From positions 1,152,968 through 1,216,967 of the forward strand of contig CBDAUN010000003.1 in the NCBI GenBank assembly GCA_965200645.1: DNA of 64,000 nucleotides. Direction: 5' to 3'. The translations under genes were made by a program, and so were the position numbers. Below, piece by piece: positions 49,394-64,000 of this stretch. The stretch is from Arenicellales bacterium. Lineage in GTDB: Bacteria > Pseudomonadota > Gammaproteobacteria > Arenicellales > JAJDZL01. The notes beneath the pieces were generated by a model. It was not told where the DNA came from. It made no database searches and saw nothing but the letters and a program-made list of their open reading frames with translations. Numbering within the stretch: position 1 is the stretch's first letter; each line of letters begins with the position of its first letter.

Positions 49394-50140
49394 ATGACTG
49401 TCAATATTGTTACGATTAAATGGGGAACGTTGTACGGTCCCGAGTATGTTAATCATCTTCGATTTAGCGTTGAACGAAACTTGTCCATTCCATTTCGATT
49501 TTTGTGTTTTACAGATGATGACACTGGTCTGAATGATGGCATCGAAGTTTTTCCGCTTCCTTCAATCAAAATTCCAAATGTGCCTACTCGTTCATCCAAC
49601 TGGCGAAAGCTAGGCTTGTACCAAGCCGGAATCGGTAACATGGAAGGCGCTTGTCTATATATGGATTTGGATATTGTTGTCGTCGATTCCATAGATTGCT
49701 TTTTTGACTATGAACCCAATCAATTTTGTGCAGTTAGCGAGTGGATTCAAACCCATCGCAAAATCATTGCCAAGCGACCCGAAGAATTCAACACTTCTGT
49801 ATTTAGGTTTCAGGCAAATACCACACAGAAAATCGTCGATCGCTTTCAGCGTGAAGGCGAGTTCATATTGCAACATTTTCGAAGGGAACAACAATTTGTA
49901 ACAGACACAATCAAGCAGGACATTAAAGCCTGGCCGCGAGACTGGGTGGTGAGTTTCAAATACCACTGCCTGCCTGCCTTTCCGCTAAACTTGTTACAAA
50001 CACCGATACTACCTTCAACCGCGAAGATTGTCGCGTTTCATGGCAACCCTAATCCGGATCAGGCTGCAGTCGGATTTAGTGATGGCCCATGGCATCGCAA
50101 ATGTCCTGCAACACCTTGGATACAAGAACACTGGCGCTGA
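49394..50140 (+). CDS. Putative GT-A-fold glycosyltransferase-like protein, paralog 1
   Basis: 248 aa with VNIVTIKWGTLYGPEYVNHL...FRFLCFTDD and a DxD-like LYMDLDIVVVDSID. The fold assignment comes from motif pattern only. Confidence 0.5.
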   Translation: MTVNIVTIKWGTLYGPEYVNHLRFSVERNLSIPFRFLCFTDDDTGLNDGIEVFPLPSIKIPNVPTRSSNWRKLGLYQAGIGNMEGACLYMDLDIVVVDSIDCFFDYEPNQFCAVSEWIQTHRKIIAKRPEEFNTSVFRFQANTTQKIVDRFQREGEFILQHFRREQQFVTDTIKQDIKAWPRDWVVSFKYHCLPAFPLNLLQTPILPSTAKIVAFHGNPNPDQAAVGFSDGPWHRKCPATPWIQEHWR

Positions 50141-50149
50141 GTTTACCTG

Positions 50150-50911
50150 ATGAGTGTCAATGTAGTATGTATGAAATGGGGCGCCCTGTACGGAGCCCAC
50201 TATGTCAACAGGCTGTATCACGGCGTGCGACGTAATATGCAAAGACCATTCAGATTTGTCTGCTTTACCGATGATACAAATGGCATTATAGATGATGTGG
50301 AGTGTCACCCACTTCCATCAGTTGAGTTTTCTGACGCCGAAGAGGATCGAAGATGGCTTAAGCTCGGTGTGCTTCGAAAAGATATCGCCGACTTAAAAGG
50401 TGCTACTCTGTTTCTTGATTTGGACGTCGTGGTGATTGATTCGATAGACGACTTTTTTGATTACGAACCTGGTACATTTTGTATTAGTCATGACTGGTGG
50501 ATGCCGTATAAGCACCTTATCTCAGAGGTGATGAAAAGACCAAAAGTGGGCAACACTTCAGTATTTCGATTTGAAGCCGGCTCTATGAACTTTATTGTAG
50601 AAAAGTTCGAAGAACACTCTACTGAGGTGTTGCAGCAATTTGCACTTGAACAGGCCTATATTACTCATGAAGTGGGTAATCGAATTCGCTGGTGGCCTCA
50701 ACAATGGGTTAGTAGTTTTCGAAGACATTGCCGACCGGTATTTCCGATGAATTTACTGGTATCTCCTTCGATTCGAGCAGGAACTCGAATCGTAGCGTTT
50801 CACGGACTACCAAAACTGGACCAGGCCGCAAAAGGTTACATGACCCGCTATCCGCATAAGATTTGTCGTCCAAGCCCTTGGATTTCAGAGCACTGGCGAA
50901 CCGACGATTAG
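50150..50911 (+). CDS. Putative GT-A-fold glycosyltransferase-like protein, paralog 2
   Basis: 253 aa, colinear with paralog 1 (VNVVCMKWGALYGAHYVNRL...FRFVCFTDD, LFLDLDVVVIDSID, NTSVFRF, IVAFHG, PWI.EHWR). It starts 9 nt after paralog 1. Confidence 0.5.
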   Translation: MSVNVVCMKWGALYGAHYVNRLYHGVRRNMQRPFRFVCFTDDTNGIIDDVECHPLPSVEFSDAEEDRRWLKLGVLRKDIADLKGATLFLDLDVVVIDSIDDFFDYEPGTFCISHDWWMPYKHLISEVMKRPKVGNTSVFRFEAGSMNFIVEKFEEHSTEVLQQFALEQAYITHEVGNRIRWWPQQWVSSFRRHCRPVFPMNLLVSPSIRAGTRIVAFHGLPKLDQAAKGYMTRYPHKICRPSPWISEHWRTDD

Positions 50912-50939: not shown

Positions 50940-51593
50940 CTAATCTTTTGCGGAATTAGGTCTGCTGTAAACCACACGTACTTCACGCAGAAACTGAGAT
51001 TTGCCGCCGTGACTGGGATGCCTAACCTGAATATGCTGTCGGTTACCACAAAGTTTACTCACTGCTAACCCAGCATCATTGCCCAAAGATAGCAGCATTT
51101 TCGGGTTCAACATATCTAACAACTCCACTAACACTTCTTCACCAACCTGCCGTTCGTGAGAATTGAATTTTCGGTTCGATAGCGAGTTGTCCCAATTGTG
51201 TGGATGCAGAGGAAATACGTTCCATAAGAACACACAGTTATCTATGTCTGATAGTGCCTGCCAGACAAATGTTGCCGTCTGTTCTTTAGTCTGTTGTCCT
51301 TTGGTTGGACTAACTGTTGCAACGTCCCATCGGTCTCCATGACGACGCAAATTGACATCATCAGTCAATGCCAATCCACTTCGCCTTCCACCCCGGTATC
51401 CCAGTTCCCGACCAACCCACAGCGCGTCTATTTGCGAATTGACCGCTCGGTTCAGTATTTTGCGCAGGACCCTTCGACGTAATAGCGGTGCTCGAGCAAA
51501 GTCATGCACCGAACACAAGTCTGCGTATGGATTGAAAACGTTTTCGAACTTTAAGTTGGAAAGTTCCTCAACAAACTGCTTTGGGGTCATCAA
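50940..51593 (-). CDS. Uracil-DNA glycosylase-superfamily-like protein with a divergent motif A
   Basis: 217 aa. WVGRELGYRGGRRSGLALTDD aligns by eye with UDG motif A (G-x-x-P-G...TG-x-PF-T), and VRHPSHGG matches the HPS motif B. The family call rests on motif pattern only. Confidence 0.5.
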   Translation of the reverse strand: MMTPKQFVEELSNLKFENVFNPYADLCSVHDFARAPLLRRRVLRKILNRAVNSQIDALWVGRELGYRGGRRSGLALTDDVNLRRHGDRWDVATVSPTKGQQTKEQTATFVWQALSDIDNCVFLWNVFPLHPHNWDNSLSNRKFNSHERQVGEEVLVELLDMLNPKMLLSLGNDAGLAVSKLCGNRQHIQVRHPSHGGKSQFLREVRVVYSRPNSAKD

Positions 51594-53708: not shown

Positions 53709-54785
53709 TTAGTTCGGGACTGATCCTTCAACACCTTGGACGTAATAGTTCATTGCGTGCATATCACCCTCTGACATGACCTGACCGTCTTCCACAATCA
53801 CAGTACCGTCCTGAGCAAAAATTGGTCCGGTAAATGGATGAAACGCACCCGTTCTGATCGACTCTTCTACCGCTTTTGCATCAGCAATTACCTCTGCTGG
53901 TACTGTCTTGGCATTGTACTCAGACATTATCAGCATGCCGGTACTGAGACCATCCCAGACATCCTGCGAAGCCCAAGTCCCATCCATGACAGCCTGCACT
54001 CTTGTTTTATAGTATGCACCCCAGTTGTTTATGGCTGCATTTAGATGAGCATTAGGAGCAAAAGCAAGCATGTTTGATGCCTGGCCAAATCCAAAAGCGC
54101 CTCTATCCTCTGCAACTTGCAACGGGGCTGGGGAATCCGTATGCTGCGCCAGGACATCGGCACCCTGATCGATCAGTGCCTTGGCGGCATCACTTTCCTT
54201 ACCCGGATCGAACCAAGTGCTTACCCATACAACTCTGACTCTAGCGTCTGGATTTACGCTGTTTAACCCCACTGCAAATGCATTAATTCCTCGCACGACT
54301 TCTGGAATAGGAAAAGAGGCAATATAGCCGATGATGTTGGATTTAGTCATAGCGCCAGCGATACGACCATGGATATAGCGACCTTCGTACCAACGAATGT
54401 TATAGGTACTGACGTTGTCTGCCCGTTTGTAACCAGTAGAATGTTCAAACTTAACGTCGGGGAACAACTTAGCTACTTTGTTAGTTGGATCCATATAACC
54501 GAAAGAGGTCGTAAAGATGAGACCGTGTCCGTCAGCAGCCAGTTGACGAATAACACGTTCGGCGTCTTGACCTTCGGGGACCGATTCAACAAAGGTAGTT
54601 TCGATTTTATCGCCAAATTCTTGTTCAATCTGTAGTCGACCTTGGTTATGCTGATAAGTCCAGCCATGATCACCAACGGGACCAACATACACAAAACCGA
54701 CCTTTAGCGGCTCTCCTGCCGATGCTGTCAGCCAAATTGCACTCAACATCAATATTGAAATGAACTTGCGAACCATAGTGCGCAT
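53709..54785 (-). CDS. BMP-family (PnrA/Med-like) ABC transporter substrate-binding protein, probably for nucleosides/purines
   Basis: Signal peptide, then KVGFVYVGPVGDHGWTYQHNQG and FTTSFGYMD, typical of the BMP family. The ATG at 54785 is preceded by GGAGGTG and is preferred to the track's TTG at 54797. Confidence 0.85.
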   Translation of the reverse strand: MRTMVRKFISILMLSAIWLTASAGEPLKVGFVYVGPVGDHGWTYQHNQGRLQIEQEFGDKIETTFVESVPEGQDAERVIRQLAADGHGLIFTTSFGYMDPTNKVAKLFPDVKFEHSTGYKRADNVSTYNIRWYEGRYIHGRIAGAMTKSNIIGYIASFPIPEVVRGINAFAVGLNSVNPDARVRVVWVSTWFDPGKESDAAKALIDQGADVLAQHTDSPAPLQVAEDRGAFGFGQASNMLAFAPNAHLNAAINNWGAYYKTRVQAVMDGTWASQDVWDGLSTGMLIMSEYNAKTVPAEVIADAKAVEESIRTGAFHPFTGPIFAQDGTVIVEDGQVMSEGDMHAMNYYVQGVEGSVPN

Positions 54786-55246
54786 AATCACCTCCAAAAG
54801 GATATTATTTTAATTTTAGTGCTGCCAAAAGAGGCTTGTCAGTGCGTGATACTGCCTATTTTTGACTAGCGATGTGTCTTTTTCTCAAGTGAGATGGACA
54901 CCTAAGTTGATAAGTATAAACCTTTACTCCACTCATTAGACGTGGAAGTTTTTATCACGTATCAAGGGGGTAGGTTATTACTATGGACCACACTTTTATA
55001 CAGGCGACGTGAAGCTGCGATAGCTAACCTGTCTGATCAAGAAACTCAAACTATTGAAGTCATAAAATCAGCAAGGACACTAGGCGAACACAGACTAGAT
55101 ATTCTCTTTGGATAAGCTTGAAAAACGGTCGGGTCGGTGTAAATAGGCTGTAATCTCCAACTACACTTCATTGGAAAATTACAGGTAACAATAAGCGTAC
55201 TGCTTGAATCCATGTACTAAATTTAAAGGACTCGCTGAAAATTTTT

Positions 55247-56983
55247 TCAATCCAACTCCCACATTGGAATCTGCTGATTGAACTTAAGGTGAGTTTGCTG
55301 GAGCAACACTGAATCAAATACATCCTCTAAACCCGGTGTTGAGTCCGATAGGATCCTCAAACTTGCAGTAGCTTCATTGAAGAACCGATTGGGAAGTCCG
55401 CTGGAGGAGTCCATATATGCCACGTCCCACCAATCGAGTATTCGCTCGCGGGCTTGGTGCAAAATTTCTCGACTTGGCAGCTTATCGCGCTTCTGATATT
55501 GATTTATGCTACGCTTTGACGGCATTAAATTCCACATGTCTTCGCAAGGCCATGCCGAAAACGGAAAGCAGTGATCAATATCCACATTCTTTGTATTTAT
55601 TCGTTTTCCGCTCCAAATGCAGTGATTGAATACATTATTTTCAATAAGTTGTTTCGCTCTTTGTCTCGGATACACAGTGCTACGTGTAGGATCGCTCCAT
55701 ACTAAAGCCTCTTCCATGGCTTCGAAATTCAGTTGTCTATCCCCCTGACTCTTTGCGAACCTTCTCATTAGACTCTTCCACTCCGATATGATCGCAGGCT
55801 CTATCCATGCGCCATAATTTTGTGCGGCCTGCCATACTCCCAAAGGAATCGTCACACTGCCAAAACTTCGCAGATAGTCGGTACTTATCACTCCGTTAAA
55901 TGCACTTCGGTTGCGCAACGATTGAGCAACAAAAACTTGATTCTTAGTTCCGGGATAAGTCGTAAAATGCATTGGGAAGTTAACCAGTGAATTACAGATC
56001 TCCTTGAGTGCGCGATGAAGATTTTTTAGATTGTCGTCTGAAAATACTGCACCAACTCTTATGTCTAGTGTGCTAACGCTATCAAGACGATGATAGGCTT
56101 CTCGCGCGAATCCAACCCCATCTGTTCCCTGTGTATTGGTTGAAAGCTGAGGTAGATTTTCATCCAGTAAAGGCCGATAGAGTCGCAACCAATATAAAGC
56201 GAATAAACCTAATGGAAGAACGACGTGTTTATCGTGGACCTGAGCTAGGCCTCCTGCGGACTGCGAAATACGAATTAAAGTTCTTAGCAGACCAAGTTTA
56301 TAGGTAGCTGTTTTCCTGTCGTTTAGGATGATGCCCCGCAGCAATGGCAAAGCGCCTGTGCCATCGCCCGGAGTTCGAAATACTAATCTTGTCCAATAAA
56401 CGCCTGGGCGACCGAGTTTGTCTGCTTCCTTTGAACACTCGACCTCGAATAGTCCAAAGTCGCGTGCATATGCGCGAACTTGTTCATCGGGAATATCCCA
56501 AAAGCCTTGAACTGGTTCGAAAGGTCCGTGTCGTAAAGTAATACAAAGCAACCCGTTAGGATTTAGCATGGATACCAAGCGCCTGAAAGCCGCTGACCTT
56601 TCAGATTGAGTGACGTGCATCCACACAGCACTGAGCAAAATGACATCGTAACTGAGGCCGGCTTTCCTCACTTTATTCAACTTTGGCAGACTGTCATCAA
56701 TCCAGTCAATATTGGAAGCATGATGATTTTTACGGGCTATTTCCCGTAGTTTAGAGCATGGCTCGACGGCGGTTACGCTATGTCCAAGCCTCGCTAAACC
56801 GGCGGCATCTCTTCCGGTTCCCGCGCCCACATCCAACACCGCACAGGCCTTTTTCGGTAAGTGCTTGATTAACTCAGCATGAACTTCCTCAAACGAAAAT
56901 CTTTCGTATTTCTTCGCAGTTTTCGAAGCGTTTTGCTCGTACCACTGACTCGCAATGATTGGGCGAATAGATTTTTCAACCAT
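55247..56983 (-). CDS. Fusion protein: class I SAM-dependent methyltransferase + uncharacterised central region + HNH (His-Me finger) nuclease
   Basis: 578 aa. MTase motif I VLDVGAGTGRDA, post-I AVE, DVILLSAVWMHV. The C-terminal VDIDHCFPFSAWPCEDMWNLMPSKRSINQYQKRDKLP is an HNH/HNN motif. I cannot assign the ~270-aa middle region. Confidence 0.7.
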   Translation of the reverse strand: MVEKSIRPIIASQWYEQNASKTAKKYERFSFEEVHAELIKHLPKKACAVLDVGAGTGRDAAGLARLGHSVTAVEPCSKLREIARKNHHASNIDWIDDSLPKLNKVRKAGLSYDVILLSAVWMHVTQSERSAAFRRLVSMLNPNGLLCITLRHGPFEPVQGFWDIPDEQVRAYARDFGLFEVECSKEADKLGRPGVYWTRLVFRTPGDGTGALPLLRGIILNDRKTATYKLGLLRTLIRISQSAGGLAQVHDKHVVLPLGLFALYWLRLYRPLLDENLPQLSTNTQGTDGVGFAREAYHRLDSVSTLDIRVGAVFSDDNLKNLHRALKEICNSLVNFPMHFTTYPGTKNQVFVAQSLRNRSAFNGVISTDYLRSFGSVTIPLGVWQAAQNYGAWIEPAIISEWKSLMRRFAKSQGDRQLNFEAMEEALVWSDPTRSTVYPRQRAKQLIENNVFNHCIWSGKRINTKNVDIDHCFPFSAWPCEDMWNLMPSKRSINQYQKRDKLPSREILHQARERILDWWDVAYMDSSSGLPNRFFNEATASLRILSDSTPGLEDVFDSVLLQQTHLKFNQQIPMWELD

Positions 56984-57384
56984 ACCGATTTAAGTTGAAC
57001 GACTTACATTTAACGTCTTGAGGACTGCTTAAGTTGCTCTAAAGACTAACTTGAAACTTATGTTTTAACTAAAACATAGAATCCATCAATCTACTGACAT
57101 ATTTCCCTGAGAACTTTGTAATGAATTCAATTTTACAACCACAAATCGATGTTCAACAATCGACATATCTAGTTCAAAAAGAATTTCGCTAATGCTTATA
57201 AAGCCTCGACTTTATCAAATTTGTGTCCATCGGTAAATCGTAAATGATGAACCAAAACTACCTTTTCTTGACTCGAACTTGATTCTTGGAAATCGCCCAA
57301 ACCAATGGCCTTTTCGATCTTCTGTAAATGACTTAAAATTTTTTTACCTTGAATATTTAACATTTTAAATTAATATAGCCTACT

Positions 57385-58578
57385 GTGTACATACGACACC
57401 TAGCCTCAGAAATTTTCCAACAAATCGACTTTTATCCGGTTGTGGCCATCCTAGGGCCTCACCAGATAGGTAAGACTGCGCTTGCACTAGAGGTTTCCAA
57501 GAATCATTCGCCCGTCTACATTGACCTGCAGGATTTAGATGACTTTCTTAAACTGAACAGGTCCACTTATTTTTTAGAACATTTAGCGGAAAAGACAGTC
57601 ATTCTTGATGGCGTGGAACGTTATCCGGATTTATTTACAAAACTCCGTGATGTAATTTATTCCAGAAGGCGAGAAGGACGTGGGAGTGGGCGTTTTTTCA
57701 TTTTAGGTTCAAGGTCAATTGAATTTATTAAACAAAACCCCGATAGTCTTACTGAATTAATCCATTATTGTGAGCTGTCGGGTCTGAGTCCATTTGAAAT
57801 CAAACAACCGCAAGGCCAGTCACTACAAGACTTGTGGTTACGCGGCGGATTTCCCGCAAGTTACGCTGCAGCAGATGACAAAGAAAGTTATAGATTGCGC
57901 CAACAAATCATTCGCACCTATATTGACCACGACATTCCTCAACTTGGTCCTCGCATGCCGCCTGATATGCTTTTGCGTTTTTGGACCATGCTGGCACACA
58001 CCCAAGGTGGCTTGCTCAATGCCTCAAAGCTTGCAGAGTCACTAGATGTAAGGAGCGTGACCATCAGTAGATACCTACAATTTATGATTGGTCTTTTCTT
58101 GATTCGTAGACTTGATTCTTACACAGGGGTTAATGTAAACAAACGGCTCGTTAAATCACCAAAAATCTACATTCGAGACAGCGGTATTGTTCATGCATTA
58201 CTGCAAATCACCGATTATCCATCACTATTGAGCCATCCAATTTCTGGTAAGAGTTGGGAAGGATTTGTCGTTGAAAATATCCTTAACGCTCTACCTTCGG
58301 GAGTCAAGCCATACTTCTACCGAACTGCTGTCGGTGCGGAAATTGATCTTCTGTTGGAATTTGGACCGGATGAATTCTGGGCAATCGATATCAAATCCGG
58401 TCGAACTGCTGCACTAAAAAAAGGGTTTCATTTGGCTTGTGCCGACTTGAATGTAAAAACCAAATTTGTAGTCTACACCGGTGAAAGTTTACTCCAGCTT
58501 GACGACGACACTACCGTGTTGCCACTTTCGCAGTTGTTGGGAATCTTGAATGAAAAATTCAAGGAATTTTCTTATTGA
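57385..58578 (+). CDS. AAA+ ATPase of the AAA_14/DUF4143 type
   Basis: 397 aa with Walker A ILGPHQIGKTALA near the N-terminus and Walker B-like VILDGVERYPD. The C-terminal third has the layout of DUF4143 proteins. GTG is the only in-frame start after an upstream TAA. Confidence 0.7.
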   Translation: MYIRHLASEIFQQIDFYPVVAILGPHQIGKTALALEVSKNHSPVYIDLQDLDDFLKLNRSTYFLEHLAEKTVILDGVERYPDLFTKLRDVIYSRRREGRGSGRFFILGSRSIEFIKQNPDSLTELIHYCELSGLSPFEIKQPQGQSLQDLWLRGGFPASYAAADDKESYRLRQQIIRTYIDHDIPQLGPRMPPDMLLRFWTMLAHTQGGLLNASKLAESLDVRSVTISRYLQFMIGLFLIRRLDSYTGVNVNKRLVKSPKIYIRDSGIVHALLQITDYPSLLSHPISGKSWEGFVVENILNALPSGVKPYFYRTAVGAEIDLLLEFGPDEFWAIDIKSGRTAALKKGFHLACADLNVKTKFVVYTGESLLQLDDDTTVLPLSQLLGILNEKFKEFSY

Positions 58579-58689
58579 GTTGCAAGTTAGTAATTTAAAC
58601 AATTACAAAGCCTTACTGGACGAAATCAATACACCAAATTGATGAATCTTAGTTCGGTTGAAATAGCCCTCTTGGTCTGCTGTTGTCTG

Positions 58690-59619
58690 CTACTTGTTCG
58701 GATGAAATATCTGACCAATACAAGCCGGTGCGTTTAGTTTTACTCTTGTTGAATCCCGAGAAATCAGTACCAGCACCAATATAGTGATCAGATACGGCAT
58801 CATGGACAGTACCTGGGCGGATACCTGCACCCCAATTCCTTGAAGGTGCAGTTGCAGTATAGTCACCGCACCAAACAGGTATGCACCAATTAAGACCCTA
58901 CCCGGTTTCCAAGACGCAAATACAACTAAAGCCAAGGCAATCCACCCTCTTCCGGCAGTCATATTCTCAATCCAAAATGGCGTATATGAAAGAGAAAGAA
59001 ATCCGCCGCCAAGTCCGCTCATTGCTCCGCCAAAGGAGATCGCCAAAAATCTAACTTTAAGAACCGAGTAACCTATGGAATGGGCTGAATCGTGTGACTC
59101 TCCGACTGCTCGAAGAATTAATCCGGATCTAGTGCGATATAAAAACCAATGTACTGCCACAACCATAAACAGCGATAAGTAAATCAAAATGTCATGAGAA
59201 AACAGTAATGGACCAATTAACGGTAATTCAGAGAGAATTGGTATATTCAACGAAGGTAACTTCTCAATCGGTTCACCCACAAATGGAAGTCCGATTAATG
59301 CACTCAACCCTATACCAAACAGAGTCAATGACAAGCCTGATGCCACCTGATTCGCTAAAAACACTAAAGTTAGCAACGAAAATAAGCAAGATATCATTAC
59401 GCCAGCAAGTGCCGCTACAAAAATGCTAAGCACCCAATTGCCAGTCGTCAACATGGTTGCAAATCCACAGACTGCTCCAACAAGCATCATGCCTTCGACG
59501 CCAAGATTCAGCACACCCGACTTTTCAGTCACTAATTCGCCTGTCGCTGCAAATAGCAATGGTGTTGCTGCACTGACAACTGTTAATAGAATTAATTCAG
59601 CCGTTCCGATAACTTCCAT
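58690..59619 (-). CDS. ABC transporter permease (BMP/nucleoside type, second permease)
   Basis: 309-aa polytopic protein of the branched-chain/ribose-type permease family. It has a 1-nt overlap with the preceding permease gene. Confidence 0.85.
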   Translation of the reverse strand: MEVIGTAELILLTVVSAATPLLFAATGELVTEKSGVLNLGVEGMMLVGAVCGFATMLTTGNWVLSIFVAALAGVMISCLFSLLTLVFLANQVASGLSLTLFGIGLSALIGLPFVGEPIEKLPSLNIPILSELPLIGPLLFSHDILIYLSLFMVVAVHWFLYRTRSGLILRAVGESHDSAHSIGYSVLKVRFLAISFGGAMSGLGGGFLSLSYTPFWIENMTAGRGWIALALVVFASWKPGRVLIGAYLFGAVTILQLHLQGIGVQVSAQVLSMMPYLITILVLVLISRDSTRVKLNAPACIGQIFHPNK

Positions 59620-60701
59620 TATGAAACTTCACCCGTTGCAGTTTGTGGCTTACGCCACTGTATCTTGTAGTTGATTAATACATCGGTAGCCAAAAGGAAA
59701 AACAAAAGCATTCCCTGAAATACACCCGCGATACCGCGTGGCAAACCAAGTCTTATCTGAACAAAATCTGCACCAAGGTAGGTTAGTGCTAGTATCAGAC
59801 TTGCCACCAACACTCCGATTGGATGAAGCCGTCCCAAAAACGCCACAATGATGGCAGTAAATCCATAACCTGGGGACACAACAGGCTGCAACTGTCCCAA
59901 AAGTCCGGATACTTCAACTATGCCGGCGAGTCCAGCAAGAGCACCTGTGCCCAACATTGTGATCCAAACAATATGCGAGTATTTGATCCCGCTGTACTTC
60001 GCTGCTCCCGTTGCCAGACCTGCAACCCGAACCTGAAATCCAATTAGTAACTTCGACAGTACAATCCAACCTGCAACCGCAGCAAACAAGGCTATAAATA
60101 CACCAGCATGAAGGCGTGTACCTCGCCATAAATTGGGCAGTTCTGCGACGGCAGGAAAGTCAACACTTTCGGGAAAATTAAATCCTCCCGGATCCTTCCA
60201 AGGGCCGTGAACCAGATTGCTCAAGAGCAAAATGGCTACATAAACCAACATCAGACTGGTTAAGATTTCGTTGGTATTGAACCTTGCCTTCAAAAATGCT
60301 GGAATCGCCGCCCATGCCATCCCGCCAAGCATTCCCATCATAAGAATTCCGGGTAGCATGAGAAAATTTTCGGAGGTGGGATTGTAGATGACCAAACTCC
60401 CGCCCACAATAGCTCCCACCACTAATTGCCCTTCCGCTCCAATATTCCAGACATTAGCTCTAAATCCGATCGATAACCCAACCGCTATCGTAGCGAGCGG
60501 AACTGCCTTAATGATCAATTCACCAATTCCATAGCTATCTGCCAAAGGACTAACAAAAAAAGCGAGCAACGACTGGATTGGCGGATGACCTAGAACATAG
60601 AACAGTATCCCTCCGGTAATGATGCTTAACGTCAATGCTAACAAAGGCGTTAGCCATATCATGAGTTTCGAATGGGTTGCTCTTGGGACTAATCTAATCA
60701 T
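59619..60701 (-). CDS. ABC transporter permease (BMP/nucleoside type, first permease)
   Basis: 360-aa polytopic protein that starts 16 nt after the ATPase gene. Confidence 0.85.
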   Translation of the reverse strand: MIRLVPRATHSKLMIWLTPLLALTLSIITGGILFYVLGHPPIQSLLAFFVSPLADSYGIGELIIKAVPLATIAVGLSIGFRANVWNIGAEGQLVVGAIVGGSLVIYNPTSENFLMLPGILMMGMLGGMAWAAIPAFLKARFNTNEILTSLMLVYVAILLLSNLVHGPWKDPGGFNFPESVDFPAVAELPNLWRGTRLHAGVFIALFAAVAGWIVLSKLLIGFQVRVAGLATGAAKYSGIKYSHIVWITMLGTGALAGLAGIVEVSGLLGQLQPVVSPGYGFTAIIVAFLGRLHPIGVLVASLILALTYLGADFVQIRLGLPRGIAGVFQGMLLFFLLATDVLINYKIQWRKPQTATGEVS

Positions 60702-60717
60702 TTCGACCTGCTGGGAA

Positions 60718-62238
60718 CTACGAAAACTGTGTCCCGCCCATCAAAAGCCCAATTTTTTCCGCACTCAAATCCTGAACGGCATATGGTTGAGATAATGTCC
60801 CTGCAAACATCACAGAAATTCTTCCGCACAGCTCCAACAGTTCGTCCAGGTCCTGAGAAATCACCAGCACTGCTGCACCATTTGCTGCCAAATCCATCAG
60901 GGATTGATGAATCGCCTGCTGCGACCCGGCATCAACACCCCAAGTTGGCTGGCATGCGAGCATTACTTTGGGATACTGCGTAATTTCCCGACCCACTAAA
61001 TACTTTTGTAGATTGCCACCCGACAAGCTGCCTGCATCAGCCTGAACCCCTGCATGTTTGACATCAAACTCAACACAAATATCTTCGGCATATTTTCTGG
61101 CATTGGCATAATTCAACCACTGTCCCTTAACCAGTTGGTAGCGGTCATGTCCACTTAGAAACGAGTTTTCAACTAGTGACATCCGTGCTACTGCACCGTG
61201 ACCAAGTCTCTCCTCTGGCACGCTCGCCACACCCATTTTTCGGCGCGCTCGAACCCCCAGCCTTCCACAGCCTTGCCCATTAATTTGTATCGTACTGTTG
61301 GTCTCGCAAGTGTCCTCACCAGAAAGCATACACATCAATTCATTCTGCCCATTACCCGCTACACCCGCGATTCCGAAAATTTCGCCCGCATGAACTTCAA
61401 AATTAATGTCCTTAAGTGAAATACCACGCTCATTGGTCGCTGCATACGATAATCCGCTTACAGCCATCACTCGGTCACCTAACTCCTGTTGACTACCTGT
61501 CGCAACTTTGAGTTCGCGGCCGATCATTATTTCTGCCAGACTTCTCGCATCCTCTTCGCTGGGTTTGCATTCGGCGACTACCTTGCCTTGACGTAATACT
61601 GTTGCTCGGTCACACAATGCCTGAATTTCTTCCAACTTGTGACTGATATACAAAATTGCGCAACGTTCCTTGGCAAGTTTTCGTAGTACTTCAAACAATC
61701 GGTCTGCTTCCTGAGGAGTCAATACGGACGTGGGTTCATCCATAATTAGAAGCTTTGGTGATTGGAGCAAACAACGCACAATTTCAACTCGTTGACGCTC
61801 TCCAACCGAAAGCTCGAACACATTGCGACTCGGGTCAAGTTCCAACTGATAAGACTCAGACACACTGATAATTTTTTCATCTAGTTCCGATCTGGTAAGT
61901 CCCGTAGAAGTGGCGAGTTCAATGTTTTCACGCACCGTCATCGCTTCAAAAAGTGAAAAATGCTGAAAGACCATCCCGATCCCCATCTGTCTAGCGATAG
62001 CGGGACTCGCGACCGAAACAGGCTCACCCTTCCACTGCACAGTACCAGAGTCAGCGCAGTGATAACCGTAAATGATCTTAACCAGAGTGCTCTTTCCGGC
62101 ACCGTTTTCGCCCAATAAAGCATGAATTTCGCCTTCAGCTATCGATAGGTCTATGGAATCATTCGCCACTACTCCGGGGAACGCCTTCGAGACTCCGTTT
62201 AGTTGGAGCAATAGATTCGGAGTTGTATTTTCAGGCAT
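60718..62238 (-). CDS. ABC transporter ATP-binding protein with duplicated ATPase domains (sugar/nucleoside importer type)
   Basis: First domain: Walker A GENGAGKST, signature LSVGERQRVEI, Walker B LLIMDEPT. The second domain has LSGGNLQK. Confidence 0.9.
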   Translation of the reverse strand: MPENTTPNLLLQLNGVSKAFPGVVANDSIDLSIAEGEIHALLGENGAGKSTLVKIIYGYHCADSGTVQWKGEPVSVASPAIARQMGIGMVFQHFSLFEAMTVRENIELATSTGLTRSELDEKIISVSESYQLELDPSRNVFELSVGERQRVEIVRCLLQSPKLLIMDEPTSVLTPQEADRLFEVLRKLAKERCAILYISHKLEEIQALCDRATVLRQGKVVAECKPSEEDARSLAEIMIGRELKVATGSQQELGDRVMAVSGLSYAATNERGISLKDINFEVHAGEIFGIAGVAGNGQNELMCMLSGEDTCETNSTIQINGQGCGRLGVRARRKMGVASVPEERLGHGAVARMSLVENSFLSGHDRYQLVKGQWLNYANARKYAEDICVEFDVKHAGVQADAGSLSGGNLQKYLVGREITQYPKVMLACQPTWGVDAGSQQAIHQSLMDLAANGAAVLVISQDLDELLELCGRISVMFAGTLSQPYAVQDLSAEKIGLLMGGTQFS

Positions 62239-63280
62239 GCCTTACTTCTGCATCTTGAACCAATGAATTATTGATCTTAAGGCGAGCTTCTAGTATCTGA
62301 GCTGAGGTGGATAGTGCAATGACTGAAGGATGCTTGCCACGAATACTTGACAAGCCAACTGGGCAATGTAATCGCTTCAGTACGAAAGCATCGATTCCCT
62401 TGTTCATTAAACGCAGTTCAAAGCGTCTACGTTTTGTTTCTGAGCCAATTAATCCCAGCCAACCGAATTCACGATTTGCAAGAATTTGATGGACAATTTC
62501 AAAGTCCACTGCATGGCTATGAGTCATCACAACGCAAAATGTGTTTGAATCAATATCACTTACTGCGTCAACCGGATTTTGTAAAGTTCGAATTGTGGCA
62601 TTATCAGGCACGCTATCCGGAAATATTTCTTTTCGACTGTCAATCCACTGAACTTGAAAGGGTAAGTTACCTAGCACGTTTACAAGTGCTTTTCCAACAT
62701 GACCGGCTCCGAAGAGGATCAAATTTGTGGGTTTTTCGTCCAGCCGGGTAACCAACCATTCTTCGCCATTGTGTTGTTCAAGAATTGATGCCGGTTCGCT
62801 TGTTTGCTTCAGTTTTTCCATCGCTCTTGCCACTGCAATTGGCATCTGACTTTCTTCCTGCTTTGTGTTGAATAGACTACTGCTTGCTTGTGAATCAACA
62901 CAAATCGGTGTAGCAAACAAATAATAGAGGCATCCTCTATCGCTACTAGTGAGGTTTAGAAACTGCTTACTGGATATTTCGTCATAACGCTCAAAATGCA
63001 AGCGCACCGCACCACCGCAGCATTGGCTTAGAACATCCCCCAAACCAATAAATTTATCCAGTCGATTGGCAGCATCAGGGTTTGAAAGCATGGTGCGGGC
63101 ATCTTCAATGGCGACATACTCCAGATGTCCACCACCGATACTGTCACAGGATTCTTTTGCAGAAACCACGATTCTTGCACCGACTTCGCGTGGTGATGAT
63201 CCGATTACTTCAACCACAGTCACAATGACGAACGGTTGTTTCGATTTCGCCAAATTAATGCTAGCCTCGAACCAGTTCAT
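62231..63280 (-). CDS. xdhC: Xanthine dehydrogenase accessory (molybdenum cofactor insertion) protein XdhC
   Basis: XdhC/CoxI N-terminal VTVVEVIGSSPREVGARIVV and a Rossmann-like LILFGAGHVGKALV. It overlaps the xdhB stop (ATGA). Confidence 0.8.
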   Translation of the reverse strand: MNWFEASINLAKSKQPFVIVTVVEVIGSSPREVGARIVVSAKESCDSIGGGHLEYVAIEDARTMLSNPDAANRLDKFIGLGDVLSQCCGGAVRLHFERYDEISSKQFLNLTSSDRGCLYYLFATPICVDSQASSSLFNTKQEESQMPIAVARAMEKLKQTSEPASILEQHNGEEWLVTRLDEKPTNLILFGAGHVGKALVNVLGNLPFQVQWIDSRKEIFPDSVPDNATIRTLQNPVDAVSDIDSNTFCVVMTHSHAVDFEIVHQILANREFGWLGLIGSETKRRRFELRLMNKGIDAFVLKRLHCPVGLSSIRGKHPSVIALSTSAQILEARLKINNSLVQDAEVRHA

Positions 63281-64000
63281 CTCACTGCACTCATCTGTTC
63301 AACACTTGCCAGCACCCGCTCTGGTGTTGCTGGTGCATTCAAGTTTGGCCAAGCCCGATAACCTGAAACACTGGATACCGCATCGCAAATGGCACCAAAG
63401 ACGGAAATTGCCAGCATCAGCGGCGGTTCACCAACTGCTTTGGACCGGTAAATGGTAGATTCGGGATTACGTCCTCGATCCCACAGTTGCACTTCCCACT
63501 GCTTCGGCACATCGCCTGATGTAGGAATCTTGTAAGTCGAAGGAGCATGCGTAGCCAGTTTGCCCTGGTCATCCCACCAAAGCTCCTCACTGGTTAGCCA
63601 ACCCATACCCTGGACGAATCCACCTTCAACCTGACCAATATCAACTGCTGAATTTAACGAACTGCCTGCATCGTGCAGTATGTCTACTTGGAGTACTCTT
63701 GTTTCTCCTGTGAGACAGTCAATCACAACCTCACTGACAGCTGCTCCACAACCGAAATAGTAAAATGGCCGTCCAGTCATTGAACCGCGATCCCAGCTGA
63801 TTTTGGGAGTGCCGTAAAACCCCGTAGCCGTTAACTGAACACGCTGACGATGTGCGAATGCAACGAGTTCGGCAAAACTAATCGAATGTCTTCCTACTAT
63901 CACCTGGCCATTTACAAACATCACTTCATTGGCTCTAACTGAGTAAAGCTGGGTTGCCACCGCAATCAGGCGATTTTTAATTTTTCTAGCTGCATCCTTT
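63277..64000 (-). CDS. xdhB: Xanthine dehydrogenase molybdopterin-binding subunit, C-terminal part (5' end outside the window)
   Basis: The frame stays open to the window edge. YYFGCGAAVSEVVIDCLTGE, DAGSSLNSAVDIGQVEGGFVQGMGW and SKAVGEPPLML match aldehyde-oxidase/xanthine-dehydrogenase Mo-subunit C-termini. Confidence 0.85.
   Translation of the reverse strand, partial: KDAARKIKNRLIAVATQLYSVRANEVMFVNGQVIVGRHSISFAELVAFAHRQRVQLTATGFYGTPKISWDRGSMTGRPFYYFGCGAAVSEVVIDCLTGETRVLQVDILHDAGSSLNSAVDIGQVEGGFVQGMGWLTSEELWWDDQGKLATHAPSTYKIPTSGDVPKQWEVQLWDRGRNPESTIYRSKAVGEPPLMLAISVFGAICDAVSSVSGYRAWPNLNAPATPERVLASVEQMSAVR

What the first reader, a model, noticed from the sequence alone, without database searches (positions are those of the whole stretch)
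55247..56983. Single-chain SAM-methyltransferase / unknown module / HNH nuclease: a candidate undescribed modification-linked nuclease
Seen in sequence:
- Residues ~45-150 carry class I MTase motifs (VLDVGAGTGRDA, AVE, DVILLSAVWMHV).
- I find no (D/N/S)PP(Y/F/W) motif and no m5C-type PCQ/ENV motifs, so the fold resembles small-molecule or RNA methyltransferases rather than classical DNA MTases.
- Residues ~480-520 form a His-Me finger (DIDHCF...WNLMPSKRSINQYQKRDKLP).
- I cannot assign the ~270 residues in between. One helix (RKTATYKLGLLRTLIRIS) reminds me of the recognition helices of winged-helix modules in modification-dependent restriction enzymes, but that is a weak impression.

Inference: this domain order does not match the type I-IV R-M layouts or the named defence systems I know. 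It could be a self-contained enzyme that writes or senses a modification and cleaves DNA.
Basis: partly seen in the sequence, partly recalled or inferred. Interest (0 to 1): 0.75.

Follow-up and report, generated by a model that had tools for sequence, protein, structure and literature searches.

The report
Methyltransferase-HNH nuclease with phosphorothioate-system ancestry
This gene encodes a real, widespread but unnamed single-chain protein that joins a SAM-binding methyltransferase module to a DNA-cutting HNH nuclease. The methyltransferase module's closest relatives are accessory genes of bacterial DNA-sulfur (phosphorothioate) modification systems. That makes it a testable candidate for a new kind of modification-linked defence nuclease.

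Summary
The 578-aa ORF (55247-56983, minus strand) is real and conserved along its whole length. It has at least 1950 protein clusters, found in at least 563 species across many phyla.
- an N-terminal class I SAM methyltransferase (MTase) of small-molecule (TehB-like) type with no DNA-MTase motifs;
- about 250 residues with no detectable relative in Pfam or the PDB;
- a Cas9-type HNH nuclease with invariant catalytic residues.

The DUF4143 ATPase is not a partner (5 of 83 loci). No neighbouring gene is conserved.

New findings:
- The central+HNH part is an autonomous module, also found as about 385-aa stand-alone proteins on plasmids.
- The MTase module belongs to a specific subfamily. Its stand-alone members, paired with a small 3-helix membrane protein, sit inside DNA phosphorothioation (PT) loci (SspABCD or DndCD) in 31 of 34 long metagenomic contigs.
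- The fused gene has no PT genes nearby. It repeatedly neighbours modification-dependent (type IV) restriction enzymes, including PT-binding SBD-HNH enzymes.

Best reading: a stand-alone, modification-linked defence nuclease whose MTase module discriminates its target, possibly by acting on PT sulfur in DNA. The chemistry is inferred, not shown.

The parts
55247..56983 (-). Whole gene: MTase + central region + HNH nuclease + C-terminal helices, 578 aa plus stop codon
   Evidence: ORF list. Full-length homologs. Alignment A1 has invariant columns throughout. AlphaFold2 model has mean pLDDT 81.9 and pTM 0.76.
56369..56956 (-). Class I SAM-binding methyltransferase module, residues ~10-205, TehB/UbiG/NodS-like. 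It belongs to the subfamily found in phosphorothioation loci.
   Evidence: Pfam Methyltransf_25/11/23/12 and TehB. Foldseek PDB hits 3h2b, TehB 2xva, UbiG and NodS, E about 1e-8 to 1e-7. It is 34-47% identical to stand-alone MTases in Ssp and Dnd loci and shares the motifs W.DD.LP.L, SAVWMH, LR.GP and D.LGR..V.W.
56804..56839 (-). MTase motif I, SAM-binding loop VLDVGAGTGRDA (residues 49-60)
   Evidence: L50, G53, G55, G57, R58 and D59 are invariant in 36 sequences. E74-P75 (end of strand 2) and D97 are also invariant.
55628..56368 (-). Central region, residues 206-452: alpha/beta, no assignable family. It carries the conserved motifs ALPLLR..ILND.K..TYKL.LLR, PLGL.AL.W.RLY.PLL..LPQ and WIEPA...EW.
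   Evidence: No Pfam, NCBIfam or PADLOC hit. No PDB sequence hit. Best Foldseek E is 0.4 against PDB and 1.4 against BFVD. Homologous to the N-terminal part of the ~385-aa stand-alone family, hhalign probability 99.4% over 325 columns.
55475..55627 (-). HNH (His-Me finger) nuclease core of the Cas9/HNH_4 type, residues 453-503
   Evidence: Pfam HNH_4 E 1.3e-5, above the gathering score. D470, H471, N485, N494, K498 and P503 are invariant. Weak matches to Cas9 HNH and to PDB 9lgi. Model confidence is low here (pLDDT 52-59).
55571..55576 (-). Catalytic Asp-His pair, D470-H471 (equivalent to Cas9 D839-H840 by pattern)
   Evidence: Invariant in alignment A1 and in the stand-alone family (D283-H284 of A8). 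The Cas9 equivalence is from my own knowledge of the motif.
55250..55474 (-). C-terminal helical region, residues 504-578. It is part of the central+HNH module.
   Evidence: Helices 505-524, 530-541 and 552-569 in the model. W518, W519, F534, Q562, Q570 and W575 are invariant. The region aligns with the stand-alone family.
57385..58578 (+). Neighbouring AAA_14 + DUF4143 ATPase (PADLOC candidate PDC-S01), divergently transcribed. It shares the inserted block but is not a conserved partner.
   Evidence: Pfam and PADLOC hits. Present within 10 kb in only 5 of 83 family loci.
54798..58689 (.). 3.9-kb block holding the two genes, apparently inserted into a purine-utilisation / ABC-transporter gene cluster
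   Evidence: It is flanked by the Bmp/PnrA binding protein (53709-54797) on one side and by ABC permeases, ABC ATPase, XdhC and xanthine dehydrogenase on the other. GC content falls to 0.39-0.42 at 57-59 kb against about 0.45 elsewhere. No terminal repeats were found.

Best explanation
The gene encodes a horizontally mobile, self-contained, modification-linked defence nuclease made of two ancestrally separate units.

Unit 1 is residues ~10-205, a TehB-like SAM-binding methyltransferase module. Its lineage otherwise serves, together with a small three-helix membrane protein, as an accessory of DNA phosphorothioation systems (SspABCD and DndC/D).

Unit 2 is residues ~206-578, an autonomous DNA-nuclease module: a novel ~250-residue region, a Cas9-type HNH core and a helical tail.

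Proposed working: Unit 1 binds SAM and supplies target discrimination. Most plausibly it recognises, and perhaps S-methylates, the nucleophilic sulfur of phosphorothioate (PT)-modified DNA. The central region holds the DNA and the HNH domain cuts it. Because no PT-writing genes accompany the fused gene, it would behave like a type IV (modification-dependent) restriction enzyme aimed at foreign modified DNA.

Shown: the architecture, its conservation, the intact SAM-binding and HNH catalytic residues, the lack of any conserved partner gene, the modular ancestry, the PT-locus association of the MTase lineage, and the recurrent type IV neighbours.

Inferred: a defence role, DNA as the MTase module's ligand, PT as the feature recognised, and any methyl transfer.
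For: 1. The family is real and constrained.
- At least 1950 clusters and at least 563 species.
- SAM-binding residues and HNH residues D470, H471, N485 and N494 are invariant.
- pTM 0.76 suggests a compact multi-domain fold.

2. It is a stand-alone gene.
- In 83 loci the only recurring gene cluster is the gene itself. The next cluster occurs in 12 loci.
- Neighbour orientation and spacing vary.

3. It sits in mobile or variable settings.
- It lies on plasmids and near IS elements, integrases and toxin-antitoxin genes.
- In the window it lies in a low-GC 3.9-kb block that splits a purine/ABC-transporter cluster.

4. Its neighbours are enriched for modification-dependent restriction enzymes.
- The top families among 149 flanking ORFs are ResIII (6), DUF3427, which marks SauUSI-like enzymes (4), HNH_2 (4), Schlafen-like helicase (3) and AbiEi (3).
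- HNH_2 enzymes, of SBD-HNH or other reader-HNH types, occur in 7 of 83 loci.
- McrBC lies nearby on a Roseomonas plasmid.

5. Unit 2 is autonomous.
- About 385-aa stand-alone proteins form at least 1024 clusters.
- They match Unit 2 with hhalign probability 99.4%.
- The superfamily has about 1289 representatives at 50% clustering.
- On Nostocales and Planktothrix plasmids the stand-alone gene is divergent from an SBD-HNH gene whose N-terminus matches solved SBD structure 8H0L (E 2e-19).

6. Unit 1's lineage is PT-linked.
- Stand-alone MTases 35-42% identical to the window domain sit beside SspABCD on Sphingomonas, Sphingopyxis and Agrobacterium plasmids.
- In Rhizobium one sits beside DGQHR/TusA/DndD/DndC.
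- In 80 metagenomic loci found through the membrane partner, 31 of 34 contigs of 10 kb or more carry PT genes: 24 loci Ssp-type and 22 Dnd-type.
- Every fused sequence's nearest non-fused relative is one of these TM-partnered MTases.
- The fused clade nests among them in a neighbour-joining tree.

7. The same MTase module is paired with a membrane protein in one setting and a nuclease in another. Defence systems commonly show this sensor-plus-swappable-effector pattern (inference).

8. The nearest characterised MTases by sequence or fold methylate soft nucleophiles: TehB (Te/Se), TPMT (Pfam PF05724, hit by many family members), bacillithiol S-MTase 9ri2 and halide/thiol MTase 3lcc.

9. Rare variants add a C-terminal LexA-like S24 autoprotease domain (P0362, P0389). 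That suggests conditional, damage-linked activation of a toxic nuclease.
Against: - There is no experiment of any kind.
- No PT genes lie within 10 kb of the fused gene in 83 loci, and none in the 64-kb window. The PT link is by ancestry of one domain, not by context of this gene.
- Some members of the MTase subfamily have no PT context: the Azospirillum/Burkholderia solo clade, a transposon copy, and the E. coli prophage phi458 cassette.
- Tree support is only moderate: 65% for fused-clade monophyly and 46% for the sister relationship.
- About 88% of immediate neighbours are ordinary metabolic genes. Control ORFs 8-10 kb away show a similar ~10% mobile/defence content. The enrichment therefore marks variable regions rather than tight defence islands.
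- The central region has no recognisable DNA-binding fold, and the SBD comparison was negative.
- The HNH core is modelled with low confidence.
- The MTase fold is typical of small-molecule enzymes, so its substrate could be a metabolite.
Confidence: 0.5

Rival explanations
1. It is a self-contained restriction-modification enzyme. The MTase domain methylates host DNA bases to mark self, and the HNH domain cuts unmarked foreign DNA, like type IIG/IIC enzymes but with an HNH nuclease.
For: An MTase and a nuclease share one chain, both with intact motifs. The gene stands alone in variable regions.
Against: No (D/N/S)PP(Y/F/W) or PCQ motif occurs in any of 36 members. The MTase module is only ~200 residues, has no target-recognition domain, and matches small-molecule MTases by sequence and fold. 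Its close relatives function as ~200-aa stand-alone proteins paired with a membrane protein, which is not how a DNA base methylase is arranged.
Confidence: 0.1
2. It is a SAM-level sensor. The MTase-like domain only binds SAM and holds the nuclease off. When a phage depletes SAM (for example with a SAM lyase), the HNH domain is released and kills the cell or degrades the phage DNA.
For: SAM-binding residues are invariant, while no catalytic residue can be identified from sequence. The same module is combined with alternative effectors, a membrane protein or a nuclease. Variants with an S24 domain point to conditional activation.
Against: This reading does not explain why the stand-alone MTase+TM cassette is tied to PT-writing loci in 31 of 34 long contigs. 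Conserved residues outside the SAM pocket (W94, W121, H123, R134, R151, R192, W197) suggest a second ligand. There is no direct evidence.
Confidence: 0.13
3. It is a selfish, homing-type HNH element. The gene spreads by cutting and inserting into genomes, and the MTase is cargo or a self-protection device.
For: The distribution is sporadic across phyla while sequence conservation is high. In the window it lies in a block that splits an operon-like cluster. HNH nucleases are common homing enzymes (general knowledge).
Against: There is no intron, intein or repeat boundary. Flanking genes differ in nearly every locus, with no shared target gene. The MTase module is as conserved as the nuclease. 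The DUF4143 gene shares the inserted block.
Confidence: 0.1
4. It is a housekeeping or metabolic enzyme, for example an RNA-modifying or small-molecule methyltransferase with an RNA/DNA-processing HNH domain, unrelated to defence.
For: The MTase fold is of the small-molecule or tRNA type (CmoM, UbiG, TehB). Most neighbours are metabolic genes. Some solo MTase relatives sit in ordinary contexts.
Against: It is present in only about 0.3% of species genomes (at least 563 of 185,579), so the distribution is patchy. It has no conserved operon. It occurs on plasmids. Type IV restriction enzymes recur beside it. Its relatives are PT-linked.
Confidence: 0.07
5. It forms a two-gene system with the adjacent DUF4143 ATPase (PADLOC candidate PDC-S01), as the first reader suggested testing.
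For: The two are adjacent in the window and in L001, and another ATPase lies 4 kb away in L002. Five of 83 loci is above the rate expected for a random gene.
Against: Seventy-eight of 83 loci lack it. Orientation differs between loci (divergent versus convergent). The window and L001 ATPases are only 27% identical although the MTase-HNH proteins are 59% identical.
Confidence: 0.05

Closest known systems
Type IV modification-dependent HNH restriction enzymes with a reader domain (SBD-HNH/ScoMcrA, SRA-HNH TagI, EVE-HNH VcaM4I)
   Same: They are single-chain, stand-alone proteins. A modification-related N-terminal module is followed by a C-terminal HNH nuclease. No cognate modification gene lies next door. 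They sit in variable regions, and in several loci they are immediate neighbours of this family.
   Different: The N-terminal module here is a SAM-binding methyltransferase fold, not an SRA, EVE or winged-helix reader. The HNH is of the Cas9-like HNH_4 type, not HNH_2. A ~250-residue unassigned region lies between them. SBD homology was tested and not found.
Restriction partners of phosphorothioation systems (SspE, SspFGH, DndFGH, PbeABCD, DndI)
   Same: The stand-alone relatives of the MTase module (MTase + 3-TM protein) occupy the position next to SspABCD or DndCD where these partners normally sit.
   Different: No sequence relationship to any of them was detected (PADLOC scan). The fused protein itself is not next to PT-writing genes. 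No described PT partner contains a class I MTase domain, to my knowledge and in my literature searches.
TehB / TPMT-type class I methyltransferases
   Same: They share the fold and the SAM-binding motifs. They are the best sub-threshold NCBIfam and Pfam matches for both the fused and the PT-linked MTases.
   Different: All scores are far below the curated cut-offs (for example TehB 31.7 bits against 218). Subfamily-specific motifs (W.DD.LP.L, SAVWMH, D.LGR..V.W) are absent from the generic families. No nuclease fusion is known for TehB or TPMT.
Type IIG/IIC fused restriction-modification enzymes (e.g. MmeI, BpuSI)
   Same: A methyltransferase and a nuclease are carried in one polypeptide.
   Different: Those enzymes use an N6-adenine DNA MTase with a DPPY motif and a target-recognition domain, plus a PD-(D/E)XK nuclease. 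None of these features is present here.
MADS (methylation-associated defence system) Mad2
   Same: The PADLOC mad2 profile matches residues 23-205 with E 7.8e-21.
   Different: The match covers only the generic Rossmann MTase domain. The MADS profiles were built from HHpred/PDB alignments, and Mad2 is described as an N6 DNA methylase in an 8-gene operon. None of the other seven genes is present.

Membership tests
Class I SAM-dependent methyltransferase fold | Glycine-rich motif I (GxGxG) and an acidic residue at the end of strand 2 | tested here: met
   G53, G55, G57 and E74 are invariant. Pfam Methyltransf_25/11/23/12 score above their gathering scores.
Class I SAM-dependent methyltransferase fold | Rossmann-like seven-strand fold | tested here: met
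   The model has pLDDT 87-96 over residues 11-200. Foldseek matches 3h2b, 2xva, 4kdr and 3ofj with probability 1.00 and target TM-scores of 0.7-0.79.
Class I SAM-dependent methyltransferase fold | Actual methyl transfer to a substrate | not testable with these tools
   This needs biochemistry.
DNA N6-adenine / N4-cytosine methyltransferases (restriction-modification) | Catalytic (D/N/S)PP(Y/F/W) motif | tested here: not met
   Present in 0 of 36 family members.
DNA C5-cytosine methyltransferases | PCQ and ENV motifs | tested here: not met
   PCQ occurs in 0 of 36. ENV occurs in 3 of 36 by chance and not in the window protein.
HNH_4 (Cas9-type His-Me finger nuclease) | Profile match above the curated threshold | tested here: met
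   PF13395 scores 25.5 bits against a 22-bit cut-off over residues 455-503. All 28 stand-alone relatives also match.
HNH_4 (Cas9-type His-Me finger nuclease) | Catalytic D-H pair and two downstream Asn residues conserved | tested here: met
   D470, H471, N485 and N494 are invariant. The equivalent residues are invariant in A8.
HNH_4 (Cas9-type His-Me finger nuclease) | Beta-beta-alpha-metal fold | tested here: inconclusive
   The model has pLDDT of only 52-59 over residues 471-500, and no structural match was obtained.
Type IV modification-dependent restriction enzymes (reader + HNH) | A recognised modification-reader domain (SRA, EVE/PUA, SBD/winged helix) | tested here: not met
   No Pfam hit falls in residues 206-452. 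hhalign against SBD gives probability 0.1%. Foldseek against 5zmo gives E = 4.
Type IV modification-dependent restriction enzymes (reader + HNH) | Stand-alone gene with no cognate modification gene adjacent | tested here: met
   No conserved neighbour was found in 83 loci.
Type IV modification-dependent restriction enzymes (reader + HNH) | Cleavage depends on modified DNA | not testable with these tools
   This needs nuclease assays on modified and unmodified DNA.
PT-locus MTase subfamily (unnamed; TM partner + MTase cassette) | Subfamily sequence signature and closest-relative relationship | tested here: met
   34-47% identity and shared motifs. phmmer E values are 1e-31 to 1e-50. The nearest non-fused neighbours are all TM-partnered MTases.
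PT-locus MTase subfamily (unnamed; TM partner + MTase cassette) | Adjacent or fused three-helix membrane partner | tested here: not met
   No TM-partner homolog occurs in the window or in the 83 fused-family loci. Here the partner's place is taken by the central+HNH module.
PT-locus MTase subfamily (unnamed; TM partner + MTase cassette) | SspABCD or DndC/D genes within ~10 kb | tested here: not met
   No DUF4007, DGQHR or FtsK-like hits were found in the 83 fused-family loci, and only one weak DndD-like hit. The window has none, including PAPS-reductase and DndC queries. For the cassette itself the figure is 31 of 34 long contigs.
MADS defence system (Mad2) | Eight-gene mad operon with an N6 DNA methylase | tested here: not met
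   Only the generic MTase-domain part of the mad2 profile matches. No other mad genes are nearby. The nature of the profiles is described.
PDC-S01 / DUF4143 ATPase two-gene system | Conserved adjacency of the two genes | tested here: not met
   A DUF4143 ATPase lies within 10 kb in 5 of 83 loci and is adjacent in 2, with different orientation and 27% identity.

The most novel reading that the evidence does not exclude
The MTase module is a DNA phosphorothioate S-methyltransferase, or a SAM-dependent reader of PT sulfur. This would be a chemistry not described for any enzyme.

In Ssp and Dnd loci it would work with a membrane partner. In this fused protein it would direct an HNH nuclease to PT-modified DNA. 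That would make the family a new class of PT-dependent restriction enzyme, and would imply a second-layer modification (S-methyl-PT) or an erasure pathway for the only known natural DNA-backbone modification.
Probability: 0.22. Interest if true: 0.9.

Novelty: new variant of a known kind. Interest (0 to 1): 0.72.

Why it matters
If the reading is right, it matters in three ways.

1. It defines a large, unannotated family of single-chain nucleases whose discriminating module is a methyltransferase fold rather than a classical reader domain. Databases currently label the family only as 'class I SAM-dependent methyltransferase'. It has at least 1950 clusters, and the central+HNH superfamily has about 1300 representatives.

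2. It exposes an undescribed accessory of DNA phosphorothioation systems, the membrane-protein + MTase cassette found in both Ssp and Dnd loci. About 84% of sspBCD loci have no known restriction partner (PMC8092258), so this addresses an open question in that field.

3. It gives a concrete, cheap biochemical test: does SAM-dependent methyl transfer occur onto PT-DNA? A positive result could reveal a new DNA-backbone chemistry and a new tool for mapping or cutting PT sites.

Even if the PT idea fails, the novel ~250-residue domain and the swap between a membrane effector and a nuclease effector are worth structural and genetic study.

Tried and rejected
1. DUF4143 ATPase as a partner. Rejected: 5 of 83 loci, inconsistent orientation, 27% identity between the two adjacent cases.

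2. The PADLOC mad2 hit as a sign of MADS membership. Rejected: it is a generic MTase-domain match, and the profiles were built from HHpred/PDB alignments.

3. Central region as a sulfur-binding or winged-helix domain. This was prompted by Foldseek rank 16 (5zmo, E = 4) and by the resemblance of the TYKLGLLR motif to the PnKPiLLL motif of SBD. Rejected at this sensitivity: hhalign probability is 0.1% with either profile.

4. Phage phi458 Orf2 as a split central domain. Rejected (hhalign probability 0.4%). It is instead the membrane partner.

5. Terminal repeats or transposon ends around the 3.9-kb block. None is convincing. Promoter and terminator scans are at background level.

6. Phage-encoded full-length copies. 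None occurs in 50,697 phage records, which hold only MTase-domain hits. No viral structural match was found.

7. Any consistent weak Pfam hit in the central region across 28 stand-alone members. None was found.

9. Literature searches found no description of an MTase-HNH defence protein, a PT-associated TehB-like MTase, or PT S-methylation.
Full report
OBSERVATION. The window holds a 578-aa ORF at 55247-56983 on the minus strand. Pfam places class I methyltransferase (MTase) models on residues 43-150 (Methyltransf_25, E 9e-14; also Methyltransf_11, _23, _12 and TehB). It places HNH_4 on residues 455-503 (25.5 bits against a 22-bit cut-off). NCBIfam gives only sub-threshold small-molecule MTase hits (CpaM, UbiG, TehB) and a faint Cas9-HNH hit. 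No (D/N/S)PP(Y/F/W) or PCQ motif occurs in the protein or in 35 homologs.

THE FAMILY. A search of 5.8 billion proteins returned at least 1950 homologous clusters. The best 120 are 516-646 aa and 44-64% identical over 84-100% of the query. Where a source gives a name, it is nearly always only 'class I SAM-dependent methyltransferase' or a variant of that. They span Gammaproteobacteria, Alphaproteobacteria, Betaproteobacteria, Acidobacteriota, Myxococcota, Nitrospirota, Cyanobacteria/Melainabacteria, Chloroflexota, Bacteroidota and others. The closest named relatives of the window protein are Arenicellales MAGs at 55-57% identity. Alignment of 36 members shows invariant residues in every region:
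- SAM-binding motif I: G53, G55, G57, R58, D59.
- E74-P75 and D97.
- A putative substrate face: W94, W121, H123, R134, R151.
- The central motifs TYKL.LL, PLGL..L.W.R...P and WIEPA...EW.
- The HNH residues D470, H471, N485, N494.
AlphaFold2 gives mean pLDDT 81.9 and pTM 0.76 for the whole chain, which suggests that the domains pack together. The HNH core itself is modelled poorly (pLDDT 52-59).

GENOMIC CONTEXT OF THE FUSED GENE. I clustered all ORFs from 82 homologous loci (10-kb flanks where available) plus the window.
- The only cluster that recurs is the gene itself. The next most frequent cluster occurs in 12 loci.
- Neighbour orientation and spacing vary, so the gene is monocistronic.
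- The DUF4143 ATPase occurs within 10 kb in 5 of 83 loci. It is adjacent only in the window (divergent) and in L001 (convergent), and those two ATPases are 27% identical while the MTase-HNH proteins are 59% identical. It is not a partner.
- Among 149 immediately flanking ORFs the most frequent Pfam families are ResIII (6), Helicase_C (5), DUF3427 (4; PADLOC type IV enzyme profiles match with E down to 1e-252), HNH_2 (4), Schlafen-like helicase (3) and AbiEi (3). The rest are diverse metabolic genes.
- A control set of 83 ORFs 8-10 kb away is also about 10% mobile or defence genes (integrase, EcoRV, N6 MTase, HipA, AAA_21). The gene therefore sits in variable regions rather than in tight defence islands.
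- HNH_2 enzymes occur in 7 of 83 loci. Two of them (L030, L039) have a sulfur-binding-domain N-terminus, and others have different reader-like N-termini.
- Full-length copies occur on nine plasmids. On a Roseomonas plasmid the gene lies about 2 kb from a McrBC-type system and near VapBC.
- No full-length copy occurs in 50,697 phage genomes.
- In the window, the gene and the ATPase form a 3.9-kb lower-GC block. It separates the Bmp/PnrA binding protein from the permeases and ATPase of its ABC transporter, within a xanthine dehydrogenase / amidohydrolase cluster. No terminal repeats were found.

THE C-TERMINAL TWO-THIRDS IS AN AUTONOMOUS MODULE. tblastn against plasmids revealed proteins that match only residues ~200-557. 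The Tolypothrix example (387 aa) seeds a family of at least 1024 clusters of about 385 aa, mostly cyanobacterial. It aligns with the central, HNH and C-terminal regions of our family with hhalign probability 99.4% over 325 columns. An exhaustive profile search finds about 1289 representatives at 50% clustering. They include the stand-alone form, the MTase-fused form, and rare MTase-fused forms with an extra C-terminal LexA-like Peptidase_S24 domain (P0362, P0389). Pfam sees nothing but HNH_4 in 28 of 28 stand-alone members. On Nostocales and Planktothrix plasmids the stand-alone gene is divergently paired with an HNH_2 protein whose N-terminus matches the solved PT sulfur-binding domain SBD-Hga (8H0L, E 2e-19). 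In Deinococcus it overlaps a different HNH_2 gene between integrases. Elsewhere it sits near PLD and UvrD-type helicase genes, UmuDC or integrases. I tested whether the central region is itself an SBD or winged helix, and it is not detectably so (hhalign probability 0.1%).

THE MTase MODULE COMES FROM A PHOSPHOROTHIOATION-LINKED LINEAGE. The same plasmid search found ~200-aa stand-alone MTases 34-47% identical to residues 10-205. They share subfamily-specific motifs.
- On Sphingomonas, Sphingopyxis and Agrobacterium plasmids such an MTase, preceded by a 130-150-aa protein with three hydrophobic helices, is transcribed divergently from a complete SspABCD-type set: PAPS reductase, ~1100-aa ATPase, DUF4007 and cysteine desulfurase.
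- In Rhizobium the membrane segment and the MTase are fused (339 aa). They lie in an operon with a DGQHR protein (TIGR04172, above cut-off), next to TusA, an FtsK-like protein, DndD, a small protein, DndC and an HNH gene.
- Using the membrane partner as bait, I fetched 80 metagenomic loci. An MTase of this subfamily follows or is fused to the partner in 55 of them, and most of the rest are cut by contig ends. PT-writing genes are present in 55. Among contigs of 10 kb or more, 31 of 34 carry PT genes. Ssp-type accounts for 24 loci and Dnd-type for 22.
- The window's own MTase domain is the best-scoring query for many of these PT-locus MTases (E 1e-38 to 1e-50).
- A neighbour-joining tree places all fused proteins in one clade inside this radiation. 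Bootstrap support is 65% for monophyly and 46% for the sister group. Every fused sequence's nearest non-fused relative is a TM-partnered MTase, never a member of the 'solo' Azospirillum/Burkholderia clade.
- No curated model names either the MTase or the membrane partner, and TehB is the best sub-threshold hit.
- The cassette also occurs without PT genes next to the integrase of E. coli prophage phi458, which is found in 29 of 5426 E. coli genomes.
- By contrast, the fused gene has no PT genes within 10 kb in any of 83 loci, and the window has none.
- Literature searches found no description of this cassette or of PT S-methylation. The Ssp literature notes that 83.9% of sspBCD loci lack a known restriction partner (PMC8092258).

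INTERPRETATION. Shown:
- A conserved three-part chain with intact SAM-binding and HNH catalytic residues.
- No partner gene.
- Mobile or variable settings with recurrent type IV restriction neighbours.
- Two ancestrally independent units.
- PT-locus ancestry of the MTase unit.

Inferred: one MTase module is combined either with a membrane protein or with a nuclease. This is the sensor-plus-swappable-effector pattern common in defence systems, so the MTase module is most likely the discriminating part and the HNH domain the effector. Three lines of evidence converge on PT-modified DNA as the most economical candidate ligand:
- The fusion to a DNA nuclease argues that the module works on or near DNA.
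- The PT-locus linkage argues that the relevant feature is the backbone sulfur.
- The nearest characterised MTases methylate soft nucleophiles (S, Se, Te, halides).
The absence of PT-writing genes near the fused gene then fits a type IV-like enzyme aimed at foreign PT-DNA. That would also explain its company (SBD-HNH, SauUSI-like, McrBC). The S24-bearing variants suggest that the nuclease is dangerous enough to need conditional activation. I put about 0.5 on 'modification-linked defence nuclease with the MTase module as discriminator' and about 0.2-0.25 on the specific PT-sulfur chemistry.

CAVEATS.
- ORFs in the homologous loci were called with a simple longest-ORF heuristic.
- Neighbour censuses list only the top families.
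- The tree uses neighbour-joining distances and has moderate support.
- The PT association was measured on loci selected through the membrane partner, so it characterises the cassette, not every member of the MTase subfamily.
- The central domain's novelty is relative only to Pfam and the PDB/BFVD libraries.

VERDICT. The proposed ATPase partnership and the winged-helix impression are not supported. The family is an unnamed new variant among modification-linked HNH nucleases. It also has an unexpected, testable connection to DNA phosphorothioation.

Noticed in passing
Loci L096:3534-4606, L098:5552-6582, L101:5582-6579, L095:3563-4582, and L106-L185: An undescribed two-gene (or fused) cassette sits next to SspABCD or DndC/D phosphorothioation genes. 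It consists of a ~130-150-aa three-helix membrane protein (motif FRSLN..WQ.PLI.MTLTGGLW) plus a ~200-aa TehB-like MTase. PT genes are present in 31 of 34 metagenomic contigs of 10 kb or more. The cassette is a candidate missing partner for 'orphan' Ssp/Dnd systems.
   Followed up: yes
L085:2336-3519 (Escherichia phage phi458 Orf2-Orf3): The same membrane-protein + MTase cassette lies next to the integrase of a lambdoid prophage, with no PT genes beside it. It is present at 99% identity or more in 29 of 5426 complete E. coli genomes.
   Followed up: partly
L084:5031-6194, L088:6001-7164, L102:5001-6152 and relatives (P0121-P0240): A large family (at least 1024 clusters) of ~385-aa stand-alone 'central+HNH' proteins occurs mostly on cyanobacterial plasmids. 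Each is divergently paired with an SBD-HNH (8H0L-like) enzyme. The surrounding module also holds a small GmrSD_N/ParB-like protein, an AcrVA2-like protein and ParA.
   Followed up: partly
P0362 (727 aa), P0389 (747 aa): Rare MTase-central-HNH variants carry an additional C-terminal Peptidase_S24 (LexA/UmuD-like autoprotease) domain. This hints at activation linked to DNA damage.
   Followed up: no
window 57385-58578 (+): An AAA_14 + DUF4143 ATPase matches the PADLOC candidate system PDC-S01 (E 2e-71). It lies in the same inserted block, and its function is unknown.
   Followed up: partly
window 57196-57363 (-): A 55-aa ORF lies in the 401-bp gap between the two divergent genes, on the same strand as the MTase-HNH gene. 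It has no Pfam hit and may be spurious.
   Followed up: no
window 53709-63960: A purine-utilisation cluster is split by the 3.9-kb two-gene block at 54798-58689. The cluster comprises a xanthine dehydrogenase Mo-cofactor subunit, XdhC, an ABC ATPase, two permeases, a Bmp/PnrA binding protein, an amidohydrolase and a HAD hydrolase. GC content drops to 0.39-0.42 at 57-59 kb.
   Followed up: partly
window 49394-50140 and 50150-50911 (+): Two tandem paralogous ORFs (248 and 253 aa, clearly similar to each other) have no Pfam match. A 217-aa ORF at 50940-51593 (-) also has no match.
   Followed up: no
L187:5595-6509 (also in L137, L161, L173): A 304-aa 'HNH endonuclease' next to DndC in the Rhizobium-type Dnd locus recurs in metagenomic copies of that locus. 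It has no NCBIfam hit.
   Followed up: no
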